From Octopus sinensis (lineage: Eukaryota), in contig NC_042999.1 in NCBI RefSeq assembly GCF_006345805.1, positions 86,366,001 to 86,430,000 on the forward strand: a stretch of DNA of 64,000 nt, written 5' to 3'. Within the stretch, counting starts at the first letter, position 1; each line of letters begins with the position of its first letter. Both the position numbers and the translations under genes were made by a program. Of the stretch, positions 55,860-64,000 are shown piece by piece. The notes under the pieces are model-generated. The model searched no databases and was not told where the DNA came from. It saw only the letters and a list, made by a program, of their open reading frames with translations.

Positions 55860-56084
55860 ACTCACTCTATCTATTTATCTATCTCTGAAGGTGTGTGGTG
55901 ATTTTAGTGTTGGGGTCACGATCTTCATAATATTCGATATTTTACGGTATCTCATATAATATATTCATTGAAGAAATATCTCTTCAAAATATAATATATT
56001 AAACCAGTGTATCTTGGATAAAGTATCCCTATAAGAAGTTTAAATATCTTCATTGTGACTAAATATGTGTGTGTGTGTGTTTGT

Positions 56085-56290
56085 GTATTTGTGTGTATCT
56101 GTGTTTTTCTCCTATCATCGCTTGACAACCGGTGTTGGTGTGTTTACGTCCCCGTAACTATGTGGTTCGGCAAAAGAGACCGATGGAACAAGTATGAAGC
56201 CTACAAAGAATAAGTCCTAGGGCCGATTTCTTCGACTAAAGGCGGTGCTCCAGTGTGGCTGCAGTCAAATAACTGAAACAATAAAAGAAT
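56085..56290 (+). mobile_element. SINE family 2, 3' half
   Basis: cgcttgacaaccg...ggcggtgctccag...actgaaac. Confidence 0.82.
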
Positions 56291-56519
56291 ACACACACAC
56301 ACACACGTATACATATACAGAGAGAGAGAGAGAGAGAGGTATATATATATACAGAGAGAAAAACAAAAATTTAAAAAATCGAAACTATTCAGATGAACAT
56401 TCATGTATAAGCATATAGATTTTTGTGAATTGACAACGGATTTATGTGTGTGTGTATACACATATGCATACGTACATATAAATATACATACTTACATACA
56501 TACATACATATACGTACAA

Positions 56520-56577
<58 letters not shown>

Positions 56578-56602
56578 GTATATATATATATATATATATA
56601 TA

Positions 56603-57100
56603 CTAGCAGTATCGCCCGGCGTTGCTCCGGTTTGTAAGGGAAACAACTATATAAACATTTTAGAGAGTTATTTCCTTTATAGATGCCAATTCGGGCTTTC
56701 TTGGCCATTTCTGTTTTGGTGTCTTCAAGCCATGAAGTCGTTGTTCTAAAAGAACGCTGGTCTCCTTGATAACGCATTACGACGTTGATTTCCTTAAACT
56801 CCCTTCCCCACAGCTTCACGAGGGAGGGAAGAAGGGGGAGAAGCAAACACAGGTGCAGGTGTTTGAGCGTGGACGCCAACTCCGCCGCCATCGACACACG
56901 AAAAATTATGCATTAAAATGGAATAAAAAATGATGTTAATTATTTTTAAAATCGTAGACTCATCGTAGACGCGCGCTAATAGCCAGACGGGCTTGATATT
57001 AATCACGACTATAAGATACCCGAATTTGGTTAAACTGCACCGCAAAATGTGGGAGGAGTTAGGAATCTAAATCGTAGGAGACAGACTACAGTTTTATATA
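56603..57100 (-). mobile_element. Non-autonomous Helitron-like element in (TA)n
   Basis: Minus-strand 3' end ccggagcaacgccggg hairpin followed by CTAG|T; 5' end tatataaaactgtagtctgtct. Confidence 0.65.
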
Positions 57101-57112
57101 TAATATATATAT

Positions 57113-57147
<35 letters not shown>

Positions 57148-57243
57148 ATATAATTTTAATCCAAAAGGGAAACAAAAAACAACAACAACAGGAACAATTA
57201 CAGTATTATTATTAATAGGCGCTCAGGAGATGGAAGCAGGGAG

Positions 57244-57278
57244 GTCTGACGTCTTCGAGCGAGCTCTTCGTCGGAAAC
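57244..57278 (-). ncRNA. Degenerate hammerhead-like motif related to family P3
   Basis: rc: gttt CCGACGA a gagc-tc-gctc GAAGA cg TC agac; local sequence looks noisy. Confidence 0.4.
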
Positions 57279-57449
57279 ATAAAGAAGGAAGAGAGAGGAA
57301 AGAAAGATCCCAGCGGGGCACAGGGAAAGAGAAAAAAAGACGACTGGTGTTTACGAGTTGCACATGGTGAAGGCGGATGTTGACGATAACAAGGGCAAAG
57401 TGGGTTTTTAAAGGCAAAAGAGTGGAGACAAGGTTGGTAACCCAACAGA

Positions 57450-58540
57450 TGTGTGGGTATGTGTGAGTGGTGCATGTGCGTGTGTGTGTATGTGTGTGTG
57501 TGAGGCGAGATGAAAAAACAAAAAATATATATGTGTGTGTTAGTGTGTGCGTCTGGTGTAGGCGTGTGAGGTAGGGCGAGACTGGTGGTCAGCTAGCAGA
57601 CGAGGTCAGTACTAAGAAAAAGAAGGAAGGAAGAGGGGAGGTCAGTAGTAAGAAAAGGAAGGAAGGAGGAAGGGAGGGAGGGGAAGGGGTGGGGGTATGT
57701 AGCGTGCCAGCGTGTGTTGAGTAGTAGTGTGTGTGTGGTCCAGTGTCGTGGTTGGTATTAATGAGTAGATTGAATGTGTGTAGAGTGATGTATATATATA
57801 GGCAAGGTGTGTATATGTGTGCGCGTGTGTGTAACGAAAAAGGGGGGGTTAAGGAGAAAGGACTCAGCTGAGGGAAGATGGAAGAGTGGTACGCGGAGAC
57901 AGGCGTGGGAAAACCCAACGACACGCGACGGTCCCAGGAACGGGCGGGAGGTCTCGTAGGTCCAAGGGCGAGGTGTATGCGACGCGTATGCAACGCGAGC
58001 CGGCGTAAGGCGTATGTGCGCGTGCCTGCGAGTATGCGCGTACGTATGTATGTGTGTGGATGTTGAGTGTGTCTGTGTGTATGTTGGGGGCAGTGTGTGC
58101 GATGAATGTATGTGAGTATGTGTGTATGTATGTGTGTGCATATATGTATGTCCGTGTGTGTGTGTATGTGTGGAGTGTGTATGTATGTACTGTGGGTGTG
58201 GGGAAGTGTGTGTATGTGCAGTGTGTGCGCGTACATACAGGTGTGTGGTGAGTGTGTGTGTGTGTATGTATGTGTGAGTGGTGTATGTATGTGTGTGTCG
58301 GATGCATGTAGTGTATGGGTGTATGTATGCGTGTGTGTATGTATGTATGTGTACGTGCGTGTGGTGTTGTATGCGTGTAGGTGTGCGCGTGTGATGCATG
58401 CATGCATGTGCGTATATATATATATATAATATATAACATATATATATATAATACATATGTATATAAATGTATGTATGTATGTATATCTGTAAGTGTAATA
58501 TATGATACACGTTATGTGTATGTATACATACACATATACT
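57450..58540. repeat. Irregular GT/TA-rich low-complexity tract
   Basis: Degenerate (GT)n/(GTAT)n; may be poorly polished sequence. Confidence 0.75.
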
Positions 58541-58977
58541 TCTGTTAAGGTATGATAAACAAAAACCGTACACCATCCAGTGAGAGATAAATATATATAT
58601 GCATATATATATAACCAAATACCAATCAGCTGAAGTAATTTAGTGAAGCCACACACTGATTGGTCAAAATACAGTTTGTAAAACTTAACATTCTGGAGCC
58701 TATAAAAATGTATAGGGACACATTTTAGCCATCTCACTACACTTGTAAATTGTAAAACATAACTGTTACCACAACTATATGAACCTGAAGATTGCATAGT
58801 TTAATGCATGAAAGTACTAGTTCAATCAGAATGGACATTTGATATTCTATCATTTCATTATATTATATTATCTTATATTATTATAAGTTTGTAAATAAAA
58901 CGTGCAAAGTTGGAATTCCTTTGATTAATGTGTGTGTGTGTGGTGTGTGTGTGTGTATGTGTGTGTGTGTGTGTGTG

Positions 58978-59009
<32 letters not shown>

Positions 59010-60522
59010 GTATTGTAGCATATGTATTAAGACAATGGCTGTATCCGAATCACTTTACATATTCTGATTATCCTGCTATGCTGTAAATCGTGGTTATATC
59101 ACTCATAATGAGATTATACCTACGTGTATAGAATAAGGATATAAACACGGTACTGCAACGGAGAAATTCCTAAATGTTTCTCTTAGATAGCTAAAAATAG
59201 TCATAGTAGAAATAAGGATCCCAGTAGGTCTTCAGAGAAAATAAAACGGGTTGTATCAGTATGAAACAAGGTGGTGGTGGTGGTGGTGGTGATTGTGGTG
59301 ATGGTAGTGGTGGTGTAGTTGGAATTTACCGCAGTACCTCAGCTGCGTTGCTTTCCAATGCAATTTTAATGGAGAAATTAAGAAATTAAACATAAATACA
59401 TACATGCACACCGGCTTTCTCGCGAGACATTTCGCAATACATCTAAATGAACTGATACTGTTGGTAGTGCAGCTACTAAACCTGCTTGAAAGATATTATA
59501 CTAAATGACTTTTGTCTGTGTGAGATCTGTGTTGATTTATCAGATAGAGTAGGTTTAACCTTTCTTCTCATCAGTTCTCTAAAAGTCAACAGAAGACGGT
59601 ATATTTATCTGAAGGAGGCTCACACATAAGTGCCACCAGGGAACTGTTACCAACCTATGTGTGTGTGTAAACGAAGGCATTTTATTTTTTCATAAAATTT
59701 AAGTAAAATTCCCGGTGGAAAAAATTTCATCTGATCTGAAGTAGATCACAGAAAGACAAATGAACTGATTACGTAAAAGGATTTTTAAAAAAAATCCTTT
59801 TTAAATGTATTTGATTATAAAATGACAGTGTAACACATGTGTCTAGCATTCAAAACTAATAATTTTTATATCTAGTTATTCAACCGTCTCACTTCCGAAT
59901 CCATAGATACTATGTCAATAAAGCTCAAAAGTTTTCAAATGAAAGGCGACTGATTTATGAGTTTGTATTCTCTAGCCTTTTCTTTCAAATTTATTTGTAA
60001 ATTATTCCAATCAAATGTATTCAATAAGAAGTACATGCGGGCAGAGAAATGATTTTAGTTGTAGAATTTGGATCAATTACTATGGTTTTAACATTTGTTG
60101 ATGACTGGTTGTACAAAGGCTTGGGAATGTATTTAACAACTTATGACACTTAATTACATAAAGATTATATTTGGTTGTAAATAAAAAAAGAGTTAGTCAC
60201 ATATGGCGTCAATAGATATAATTAAATAACATTTGTGCAAATTCTAGGAGCTTTTTTAAAAATTTGTTTTTGTATGAAAATAATCCCAAATATACATTGC
60301 TTACACGGCATAATAGTGAATTCACGTATTACTGAAGCCCACAAATTATAGAAAAGGATTATAATTCATTAAATGGGATTTCAGTTCTTGAGTGGCACAT
60401 ATTATATTCACCCCAGAATGATAAAATCGACTCTGGTACAGTTTGAACACAGAATGTGTAAGTATATAACTAAACACCACAAAATATTGTCCCGTCTTTC
60501 TTCTCAATATTAATTGCTAATC

Positions 60523-60770
60523 AAGGCGGCGAGCTGGCAGAATCGTTAGCATACCGGGCGAAATGCGAAGCCGTATTTCGTCTGCCGTTACGTTCTGAGT
60601 TCAAATTCCGCCGAGGTCGACTTTGCCTTTCATCCTTTCGGGGTCGATAAATTAAGTACCAGCCACGCACTGGGGTCGATATAATCGACTTAATCCGTTT
60701 GTCTGTCCTTGTTTGTCCTCTCTATGTTTAGCCCCTTGTGGGTAGTAAAGAGATAGGTATTTCGTCTCCG
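60523..60770 (+). mobile_element. SINE family 1 (tail B) followed by the ggtatttcgtct site
   Basis: Complete unit, then 60756-60770 repeats the internal site. Confidence 0.92.
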
Positions 60771-62365
60771 TGAATTGTACGAGCTTGTTTGTTTGGTTTG
60801 TAGTTCTTTGTGCTGCGTTTGCAGCGGTTTTTGAGTTGTTGTGCTGTCTCTCGGTAGTACTGAGAGATGATAGGTGGAAGTCGTGTATATTCGGACCTAA
60901 GCGAAACTGAGTTGTCCGCTTCGGAGGAAGAACTGGTTAAGGCAGTAAAGATGTTGGGCGCATGTCTGGAAAAGAAAAGTTTTGCAGAGGCAATCGAGAT
61001 GAGAAGGAAGAAAATAAACCTGGCAAATATGGAAAGAGACAGTAGAATGGCTGTAAAGATGGGGAACGATGTGAGGTTGTCCCCACCGCAGACAAGGATG
61101 GAAATCCAAAAGAAGATGGTAACGTACAAAGTTTATTCAGAAAAAGAGAGTCGACCACATGGAGGAGAAAGAGATAGACAAGGCGCTGATGACAGTCTGG
61201 CCAGATATTACCTACCTGGCCAGAGGTAGCATGTTCGGGACGATTATTGTTCATTATAAAACAGAGGAAAGAGCGATAGCCCACGCTGCCAAAGTGTTAA
61301 AAACGGAAAAGGTAGTCCTCTTGCAGTCTTACATGGGCAAGAGGATTGCCAAAATCAAAGTGGAAGGGATTCCCCCTGAAATCGATGCGGCTTGGGTGGT
61401 GGCGGCTCTCTTTGTTGAAAGAAAAAAAGAGGTGAAGGTAATTCAAGCAGAAGTGATGGAAGGAGCAACATGGAAGGGACAAATGATCGAGGTGGAGTTC
61501 CTCGAAGTGCTTCCCGAGAACCTGTGGATTGGGGATTTGATCCTGAAAGTGTGGGTGGAGGGCAGGATTCCTCGCTGCTTTAAATGCCCTCCACCACCCA
61601 AAATGGTAGAAGAGCGACAGCCACCACCACAGGAGAGGATACAAGAAGTAGAAAGAGAAACTCCAGTATTAGAAGATATGGAATGGGAAATAGCCGGGAA
61701 AAGAAAAAAAAAAGAAAAAGAACGGAAGTAAGTACTTGCGAACCCCAACCCACCCAGTGCCCTCCCGCTCCCTTTTCACCACACTCTCTCCATGCAAACA
61801 CCAAACCTACCCATTCCCCTCCAACAACAAAACAGAAAAGAAATACAAACACACATGATATAGATATGACTCCCTCTCCCCCTGTTTGTTTTGCTTGCGT
61901 TTTGTATGCGGACGCGGAGGACGAAGTTGTAAACCTGGTGAGCGAGTGGAAGGATGTGGTCGAAGTGGAATTCTTCGATGTAGATGGTGATCCTATTATA
62001 TGCCAATTGTTAAATAAGGCACAAATGGAGATAGTAAAAAAGTATGATAAGGGTATTGAGTTGTGGAAGGTGATCGGGGAAAGAGAGCAATGCCAAAACA
62101 GACCTGTCATACTGAACTAAAATTGACTGCGGTATTGAACTGCTGAATTTTAGATAAGTGTGATTGAACTGTAAAACGGTTTCAATGTAACCACTCGACT
62201 TCGGGGGTCGAGGGGGCATTCCGCCTCATTATGTCATCTTTTTCATGATTCATTCGTTTTTTTTTTTAATTTTGCTTCTTTCTTTATGCCTCCTTGTTAT
62301 AATTTTAGTTCCCCGATATTGTGCACGTACCTTCTATGTTGGTCCCTGGTGGGTAATAAAGAAAT
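60771..62365 (+). mobile_element. ORF1-only Tx1/L1-like retroelement (HAL1-like), ~1.6 kb
   Basis: 5' UTR, one frameshifted ORF, T-rich 3' UTR ending ccctggtgggtaataaagaaat; flanked by ggtatttcgtctccg / gatatttcctctgccg. Confidence 0.7.
60867..62120 (+). pseudogene. L1/Tx1-like ORF1 (RRM-like region plus truncated zinc knuckle), two frameshifts
   Basis: Joins track ORFs 60867-, 61159- and 61584-62120; IKVEGIPPEID, LKVWVEGRIPRCFKC, WEIAGKRKK, Pro-rich linker. Confidence 0.7.
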
Positions 62366-62800
62366 CGATATTTCCTCTGCCGTTTCGTTCTGAGTTCAAA
62401 TTCCGCCGAGATCGACTTTGCCTTTCATCCTTTCGGGGTTGATTAAATAAGTGCCAGTTACGCACTGGGGTCGATATAATCGACTTAATCCGTTTGTCTG
62501 TCCTTCTTTGTCCTCTCTGTATCTAGCCCCTTGTGGGTAGTAAAGAAATAGGTATTTCGTCTGCTGCTACGTTCTGAGTTCAAATTCCGTCGAGGTCGAC
62601 TTTGCCTTTAATCTTTTCTGGGTCAATAAATAATCATTATTATTATCATTATTATTATTAAGGCAGCGAGTTGACAGAATCTTTAGCACGCCGGACAAAA
62701 TGCTTTGCGGCATTTTCGTCTGGCTTTACCTTCTGAGTTCAAATTCCACCAATGTCGACTTTGCCTTTCATCCTTTCGGGGTTGATGAAATAAATACCAG
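62366..62800 (+). mobile_element. SINE family 1 array
   Basis: Resumes at the internal site; second junction at 62550/62551; another copy from 62659. Confidence 0.88.
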
Positions 62801-63510: not shown

Positions 63511-63541
63511 TAAATAAGATACAGGTACATTAGTACAAATA

Positions 63542-64000
63542 CGAGGGACGTTCAATAAGTAATGCCTCTGACCCACTTGCAGTTGTTTGATCTAGCTGAA
63601 ATTTTGCATGTGCAATCATTTATATCTCTATAGAGTAAGTGGCAAATTACAGCCCTAAATTAATTGTGGTTTTTGATTTACAGGTGTTGAACCGAGTCAA
63701 GTGTGAAATGGAGCCTGTTGAGTGTCGAGCAGTGATCCGGTTTTTGTATTTGAAAGGACGCACACCACGGGAGACTTTTGATGAAATGAAAGTAACTTAT
63801 GGTGATGATGCCCCATCATATGACCTTGTAAAACGCTGGCATCGTGAATTCAAACATGGTCGGAACTCTGTGGAAACAGCTCCCAGATCTGGTCGCCCCT
63901 TCTGCCATTGATGAGGCATCTGTCCGTCAAGTTGAGGCTGCCATTTTGGAAGATCGACGCATAATTATTCGCCAAATAGCCCATGAGGTCAAGATTAGCG
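63542..64000 (+). mobile_element. Mariner element 5' end, cut by the window edge
   Basis: TA|cgagggacgttcaataagtaatgc TIR; ATG at 63708: MEPVECRAVIRFLYLKG..TYGDDAPSY..VKRW..FK.GR..APRSGRP, frameshift, EDRRIIIRQIAHEV. Confidence 0.92.

What the first reader, a model, noticed from the sequence alone, without database searches (positions are those of the whole stretch)
60756..62382. ORF1-only Tx1/L1-like element inserted inside a SINE and sharing its 3' tail
Seen: ~1.6 kb with one frameshifted ORF (~415 codons) and no endonuclease or RT. It is bracketed by two versions of the SINE-internal site (ggtatttcgtctccg / gatatttcctctgccg), after which the SINE resumes. Its end (ccttctatgttggtccctggtgggtaataaagaaat) resembles SINE tail B (ctctctatgtttagccccttgtgggtagtaaagagat). 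Known: HAL1 elements are ORF1-only L1 derivatives, and many Tx1 elements are target-specific. Inference: a three-part system of an unseen autonomous Tx1, an ORF1-only passenger and a SINE that is both passenger and target.
Basis: partly seen in the sequence, partly recalled or inferred. Interest (0 to 1): 0.72.

Follow-up and report, generated by a model that had tools for sequence, protein, structure and literature searches.

The report
Half-LINE homing into an octopus SINE
This broken 1.6-kb jumping gene belongs to a small family that carries only an RNA-packaging gene, and all twelve copies whose ends could be read sit at the same base of a very common short repeat, where a complete retrotransposon also lands, so it likely borrows that partner's cutting and copying enzyme.

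Summary
Confirmed and extended. Window 60768-62366 is a dead copy of a family of ~1.6-kb non-LTR elements with one ORF1 (tandem RRM + CCHC) and no ORF2. All 12 loci with a 3' end stop at one base of the SINE head. The predicted partner exists: a young 5.4-kb L1/Tx1-type LINE (endonuclease + RT) at the same base in 30 of 30 copies, and in 18 of 19 older ones. Three corrections. (1) The element is not a deletion of that LINE: it lies in an old clade in which no ORF2 was found, under purifying selection; grouping with the LINE is rejected (p 1e-6). (2) The tail is shared by sister LINEs with other targets, so it does not name the helper; the target does. (3) The SINE self-targets only partly (13 of 47). 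Clade relatives with another tail follow another LINE into another SINE, which suggests tail swapping. Some copies carry their own version of the landing site at the 5' end. The scan noted this system before at other loci of this genome. New variant of known kinds (HAL1/HeT-A; Tx1-Mar/SINEU).

The parts
60523..60755 (+). Upstream SINE unit with hairpin tail ('tail B'): head, internal target site 60573-60587, body, tail
   Evidence: tail homologous to LINE 3' ends
60756..60767 (+). 5' copy of the target site (about 12 bp)
60768..62366 (+). ORF1-only non-LTR element, dead copy, 2.6% from the family majority
60867..62120 (+). Broken ORF1, about 418 codons: tandem RRM-like core, half-deleted CCHC knuckle, Pro/Lys-rich linker, small C-terminal domain
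62186..62212 (+). 3' UTR hairpin shared with ORF1-only elements of a different ORF1 clade
62334..62366 (+). Terminal tail: short CCC/GGG hairpin plus AATAAA, shared with the autonomous LINE, its sister families and SINE tail B
62367..62378 (+). 3' copy of the target site (2 mismatches)
62367..62631 (+). Downstream SINE units restarting at SINE position 53-54 (one unit with tail B, then a partial unit)

Best explanation
This is a dead copy of an ORF1-only non-LTR family that sits at one fixed base in the head of an abundant SINE and was likely moved there in trans by the endonuclease and reverse transcriptase of the L1/Tx1-type LINE lineage that occupies the same base. Shown: family structure, absence of ORF2, identical 3' junctions, an intact LINE at the same junction, real target duplications for that LINE, an old ORF1 clade under purifying selection. 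Inferred: the element's RNA is packaged by its own ORF1p, is recognised by ORF2p through the 3' hairpin-AATAAA tail, and is copied by target-primed reverse transcription at a nick just 5' of (C/G)GTATTTCGTCTG, which lies between the presumed A and B boxes of the SINE head (box motifs recalled, not tested).
For: Nine long copies, 90-95% identical over aligned columns; seven are 1.56-1.63 kb, two are shortened by deletion; none has ORF2. 12 of 12 loci with a 3' end are followed by the site plus SINE body. Outer flanks share only dispersed repeats at 69-85% and the downstream SINE halves differ (7 run into tail B, 5 stop at SINE position 170), so the insertions are separate. An ORF1 search scored 150 of 10,908 candidates: 8 matches at 83-100%, all family copies, the rest listed at 58% or less. 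Autonomous LINE: 520-aa ORF1 + 1,134-aa ORF2 with Exo_endo_phos, RVT_1 and zf-RVT; 30 of the 30 best loci (of 151 matches) end at the site, about 99% identical; 18 of 19 older copies with a 3' end (82-99% identity, 20 fetched) too; 28 of 28 5' junctions follow the site, with the C/G first base and four private variants matching between the two site copies (one row looks like an assembly duplicate). ORF1 model pLDDT 81, best folds tandem RRMs. dN/dS 0.08-0.24 between diverged ORF1-only subfamilies; synonymous sites saturated between this family and its nearest ORF1 relatives. 5' site copy reads TATATC in 3 of 6 copies with an intact 5' end against 0 of 51 unselected sites; a head variant occurs only in two of these copies among 65 heads. 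An older sister LINE at the same site starts with the same 9 nt as the element.
Against: The tail does not single out this LINE: families that target another repeat or ORF1 coding DNA have nearly the same last 33 nt. Four 5'-shortened copies (L009, L010, L014, L018) have no site copy at their 5' junction, and three (L006, L008, L024) begin with a SINE tail joined at one shared point without a site. No copy of the nine has an intact ORF, and no expression was examined. Genome searches score only the best candidates, so a closer or different helper could have been missed. Pairs of close, decayed copies give dN/dS 0.36-0.64.
Confidence: 0.85

Rival explanations
1. The passenger's target is set mainly by its own RNA, not by which helper nicks: read-through or tag sequence from the previous landing site at the RNA ends pairs with the nicked target, so any sister LINE with the common tail could help.
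For: The tail is common to families with different targets, yet this family is 12 of 12 at one site; element-borne 5' site and head variants; off-site tail-B SINEs mostly start their flank with GGT, AGA or TAT, the first bases of known landing sites.
Against: The tail-B SINE, which often lies upstream of the site and could carry the same read-through, is at the site in only 13 of 47 cases. In the LINE the first base of the duplication follows the local target in 28 of 28. The 5' tag evidence rests on 2-3 copies and bears on the 5' junction, not on the nick.
Confidence: 0.25
2. One insertion happened once, and the element then spread as cargo inside a SINE transcript or by duplication, so the shared junction is inherited, not targeted.
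For: Shared head variants in L003 and L004; a shared SINE-element joint in L006, L008 and L024.
Against: Downstream SINE halves differ in type between loci; outer flanks are unrelated; the autonomous LINE makes the same junction with true duplications.
Confidence: 0.08
3. It is a recent internal deletion of the SINE-targeting LINE (a one-off or a simple HAL1-type derivative of it).
For: Same site, similar tail, homologous ORF1.
Against: DNA similarity is limited to the last 33 nt; AU test rejects a clade of the family with this LINE, p 1.2e-6; the family lies in a 100/99-supported clade of 42 rows in none of which ORF2 was found.
Confidence: 0.03
4. It is a processed or duplicated host gene for an RRM/zinc-knuckle protein.
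For: Some public homologues are annotated as host proteins in Octopus and Argonauta.
Against: About 15,000 first-look candidates in the genome; the same protein is ORF1 of intact LINEs; LINE-type tail and fixed target.
Confidence: 0.01

Closest known systems
HAL1 (half-L1) of mammals; HeT-A (Jockey clade) and Ag-Sponge (CR1 clade) (PMC5753468 and PMC5786205, passages read)
   Same: Non-autonomous LINE that keeps only ORF1 and a 3' end and depends on an ORF2-bearing partner.
   Different: ORF1 is of the RRM + CCHC type, not Transposase_22; the element is site-specific inside a SINE; it is not derived from its apparent helper but from an old clade whose members carry different tails and targets.
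Tx1-Mar LINEs and SINEU of crocodilians; Tx1L in Tx1D of Xenopus (PMC4494074, passages read)
   Same: Tx1-type LINE that targets another repeat; a non-autonomous passenger shares the target and forms tandem insertions around a duplicated site.
   Different: Here the target is the SINE itself, which also wears the LINE tail, and a protein-coding ORF1-only passenger is a third member; in the passages read the targets were DNA transposons, LTR elements, snRNA genes and microsatellites.
Kibi (TC)n-specific Tx1 of teleosts (PMC4494074, passage read)
   Same: A sister LINE family in this genome ends at (TC)n in 18 of 20 loci fetched; the other two belong to other families.
   Different: Relationship by RT tree was not tested.
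R2 co-transcribed with its rRNA target (as cited in PMC4494074; homology-guided 5' joining is recalled)
   Same: Element-borne target sequence at the 5' junction suggests transcription from within the target.
   Different: Different clade and endonuclease; evidence here is 2-3 copies.

Membership tests
ORF1-only non-autonomous LINE (HAL1-like) | Multicopy family with ORF1 and no ORF2 | tested here: met
   9 long copies without ORF2; Pfam
ORF1-only non-autonomous LINE (HAL1-like) | ORF1 homologous to LINE ORF1 and under purifying selection | tested here: met
ORF1-only non-autonomous LINE (HAL1-like) | 3' end shared with an autonomous LINE; target duplication | tested here: met
   duplication absent in 7 copies with an altered 5' end
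HAL1 in the strict sense | Derived from mammalian L1 with a Transposase_22 ORF1 | tested here: not met
   Pfam gives zf-CCHC and weak RRM_3, no Transposase_22, on intact relatives
ORF1-only non-autonomous LINE (HAL1-like) | Mobilisation in trans by a partner's ORF2p | not testable with these tools
   inferred from identical junctions
L1 group (helper LINE) | Two ORFs; ORF2 with APE endonuclease, RT and C-terminal zinc domain; nearest solved relative L1 ORF2p | tested here: met
   PDB best hit human L1 ORF2p E 2e-64, R2 1.6e-20
Tx1 clade (helper LINE) | RT groups with named Tx1 elements in a tree | not tested
   no named Tx1 reference came up among the homologues looked up
Tx1 clade (helper LINE) | RRM + CCHC (type I) ORF1 and target-sequence preference | tested here: met
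   feature as described in PMC5203782 and PMC4494074 (passages)
tRNA-derived SINE (target) | tRNA-related head with Pol III A and B boxes | tested here: inconclusive
   ARAGORN 0 genes, no Rfam tRNA match; box-like motifs recognised from recall only; which named octopus SINE this is was not determined

The most novel reading that the evidence does not exclude
Octopus genomes hold an old, free-standing lineage of ORF1-only retro-parasites that change host LINE, and so genomic target, by swapping 3' modules and by carrying tags of their last landing site, turning SINE heads into self-renewing landing pads: a natural system in which the passenger RNA helps program where a LINE enzyme inserts.
Probability: 0.25. 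Interest if true: 0.78.

Novelty: new variant of a known kind. Interest (0 to 1): 0.56.

Why it matters
A LINE that targets the SINE it appears to mobilise finds a harmless, self-renewing landing site, and a third element exploits both. The matched sets in one genome (helper, target, ORF1-only passenger, for two different SINEs) and young intact helper copies make two open questions testable: how a site-specific ORF2p picks a passenger RNA in trans, and why keeping ORF1 alone is selected. Site-specific LINE enzymes with defined 12-16 bp targets are also of interest for targeted gene insertion. The parts are each known from other animals; the combination and the apparent partner switching were not found in the papers searched.

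Tried and rejected
Pfam on the three ORF pieces of the window copy: no relevant family. Word-based protein search with a close ORF1 relative: no hit among 212 candidates; a profile search then found 1,515, and 5 of 10 looked up were named from Octopus or Argonauta. Rfam and ARAGORN gave no tRNA match for the SINE. No Tx1 ORF2 lay directly upstream of the 3'-UTR match in the 21 shortened or related loci checked (two had short ORF2 fragments further off). Following a 'TGTGAGTTG' start at the same site led to an older, internally deleted sister of the LINE, not to a progenitor of the element. The tail as a marker of the helper was rejected. Derivation from the helper was rejected. In the tree one row (L050) was mislabelled as the position-53 site; its junction is near SINE position 30. 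Five of 77 ORF1 rows were left out as too short or with more than four stops. The HAL1 paper of Bao and Jurka (PMC2923044) is not held and was not seen. Literature searches found no description of SINE-targeting Tx1 or ORF1-only Tx1 elements in octopus; Repbase, Dfam, subscription papers and supplements were not seen and may list these families. Expression was not examined.

Full report
Observation. The window shows a SINE unit (60523-60755), a copy of a SINE-internal site (60756-60767), a 1,599-bp insert (60768-62366), a second site copy with two mismatches (62367-62378) and SINE sequence resuming at SINE position 53-54. The insert holds one ORF of about 418 codons in three frames with no endonuclease or RT family. 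Compared with other copies it has a frameshifting deletion near 61138, in-frame deletions near 61488 and 61585 (the latter removes half of the CCHC knuckle) and an out-of-frame A-tract near 61711. It is a dead copy.

It is a family. A DNA search of the genome (40 of 415 candidates scored) returned nine long copies and several fragments. Seven are 1.56-1.63 kb and two are shortened; they are 90-95% identical over aligned columns and 2.6-5.2% from their majority. None has ORF2. All 12 loci that keep a 3' end are followed by the site and SINE body. Their outer flanks share only dispersed repeats, and the SINE halves downstream differ, seven running into tail B and five stopping at position 170, so these are separate insertions. 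A search with the family's ORF1 (150 of 10,908 candidates scored) gave eight matches at 83-100%, all family copies, and nothing else above 58% among those listed.

The protein. An alignment of 26 ORF1 cores including the window piece folded with mean pLDDT 81 for a close relative as lead sequence; the best structural matches are tandem RRM proteins, followed in sequence by a CCHC knuckle. This is the type I ORF1 described for diverse L1/Tx1 elements (PMC5203782, passages). Named homologues come from Octopus and Argonauta, so the genome is likely an octopus.

The helper. Among 20 ORF1 hits fetched with long flanks, five were one 5.4-kb LINE with a 520-aa ORF1 and a 1,134-aa ORF2, flanked by SINE positions 3-67 and 53 onward. 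ORF2 has Exo_endo_phos, RVT_1 and zf-RVT; its best solved relative is human L1 ORF2p. The 30 best loci of 151 matches all end at the site and average 99% identity. Of 20 lower-scoring copies fetched, 19 had a 3' end and 18 of them were at the site, at 82-99% identity, so the lineage spans the age of the passenger. All 28 5' junctions read follow the site, and the variable first base and four private variants match on both sides, which shows real target duplication.

Correction 1: not a deletion of the helper. DNA similarity between element and LINE is limited to the last 33 nt. In an ORF1 tree of 72 of 77 rows, the family lies in a 100/99 clade of 42 rows: 31 end in a recognised tail without ORF2 and 11 were unclassified, with no ORF2 in the DNA held; all 19 ORF2-bearing rows lie outside. 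Holding the family with the LINE is rejected, p-AU 1.2e-6. Between diverged ORF1-only subfamilies dN/dS is 0.08-0.24; close decayed pairs give 0.36-0.64. The sample is a small part of about 15,000 first-look candidates, so an autonomous member of the clade is not excluded.

Correction 2: the tail is lineage-wide. The short hairpin plus AATAAA ends the element, the LINE, SINE tail B and also LINE families that land in another repeat or in ORF1 coding DNA of relatives. The site, not the tail, ties the element to its helper. A different tail does track a different helper: a LINE family that ends at a second SINE in 30 of 30 loci (SINE body following in 28) shares its distinct tail and target with 13 ORF1-only rows of the same clade as this element. 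The element's 3' UTR hairpin is shared with ORF1-only elements of another ORF1 clade but not with its nearest ORF1 relatives. Both point to exchange of 3' modules (inference).

Correction 3: the SINE is only partly self-targeting. In 420 kb of unselected DNA, 47 SINE units end in tail B: 13 at the site, 4 at SINE position about 19, 30 elsewhere, many with 16-24 bp duplications. With 51 sites in that DNA, well under one hit is expected by chance, so the preference is strong but not exclusive. Slippage or unequal exchange may add to the arrays and was not excluded.

5' ends. Three of six copies with an intact 5' end read TATATC in the 5' site copy, against 0 of 51 unselected sites, while their 3' copies lack that change. 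Two of them also share a head variant found in none of 63 other heads. This suggests that some source RNAs began in the upstream SINE head and supplied the 5' junction. An older sister LINE at the same site begins with the same 9 nt as the element, a hint that it was the helper then. Against a tidy picture, four shortened copies lack a 5' site copy and three begin with a SINE tail joined at one shared point.

Mechanism. Most likely (0.85): the element's RNA, coated by its own ORF1p, recruits ORF2p of the SINE-targeting LINE lineage through the 3' tail; the endonuclease nicks 5' of (C/G)GTATTTC and target-primed reverse transcription inserts the copy and duplicates the site. Structure, junctions and selection are shown; trans-mobilisation, RNA binding and the nick are inferred. 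A compatible rival (0.25) is that RNA tags from the last landing site steer the choice.

Comparison. ORF1-only LINEs are known from the L1 (HAL1), Jockey (HeT-A) and CR1 (Ag-Sponge) clades (PMC5786205 and PMC5753468, passages). Tx1 LINEs that target other repeats and share the target with a SINE are known from crocodilians (PMC4494074, passages). A 2026 octopus repeat annotation lists 13 recently active L1-Tx1 families but its main text has no hit for target, nested, ORF1 or HAL1 (PMC13282606, first third read and term search). A mollusc SINE paper (PMC4758252, passages) names octopus OR2 but did not let me name this SINE. Seven searches found no account of this system; Repbase and supplements were not seen. 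This scan has noted the same kind of system at other loci of this genome, though no note matched this element's sequence. Tx1 membership rests on ORF1 type, target preference and a (TC)n-targeting sister, not on an RT tree.

Verdict. Observation confirmed, interpretation supported with three corrections. New variant of known kinds; interest 0.56.

Noticed in passing
L238-L267, L286, L077; ORF1-only L040, L042-L044, L049, L051, L053-L056, L058-L060: A parallel system in a second abundant SINE: a LINE family (30 of 30 at one site) and ORF1-only elements with its distinct tail at the same site.
   Followed up: partly
L214-L215 (G000:C6:70542500-70562500) and L216-L217 (G000:C5:48421500-48441500): Head-to-tail arrays of 9 and 7 ORF1-only units of about 1.75 kb; the C5 array has SINE position-19 site copies between units and lies upstream of a copy of the helper LINE.
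   Followed up: partly
L037, L050, L071, L141, L159, L169, L174: Other ORF1-only families land at SINE positions of about 9-30, so the SINE head has several hot spots; their helpers were not identified.
   Followed up: no
L268-L283, L285, L287: A sister LINE family that ends at (TC)n microsatellites, as reported for Kibi.
   Followed up: partly
L128-L135, L144: A LINE family whose 3' junctions often lie in ORF1-like coding DNA of relatives, forming mixed LINE and ORF1-only clusters.
   Followed up: no
L006, L008, L024: A whole tail-B SINE is joined to a 5'-shortened element at the same point in three loci, possibly a chimeric source copy.
   Followed up: partly
L308, L310: An older sister of the helper LINE with the same internal ORF1-to-ORF2 deletion junction in two loci.
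   Followed up: partly
L178-L213 and window: Off-site tail-B SINEs mostly start their flank with GGT, AGA or TAT, suggesting several helpers or short-homology priming.
   Followed up: no
window 63540-64000: Start of a likely mariner-type DNA transposon (transposase-like reading frame from about 63707; family recalled, not tested).
   Followed up: no
window 56001-60000: Strong GC skew (0.28-0.30), probably simple repeats.
   Followed up: no
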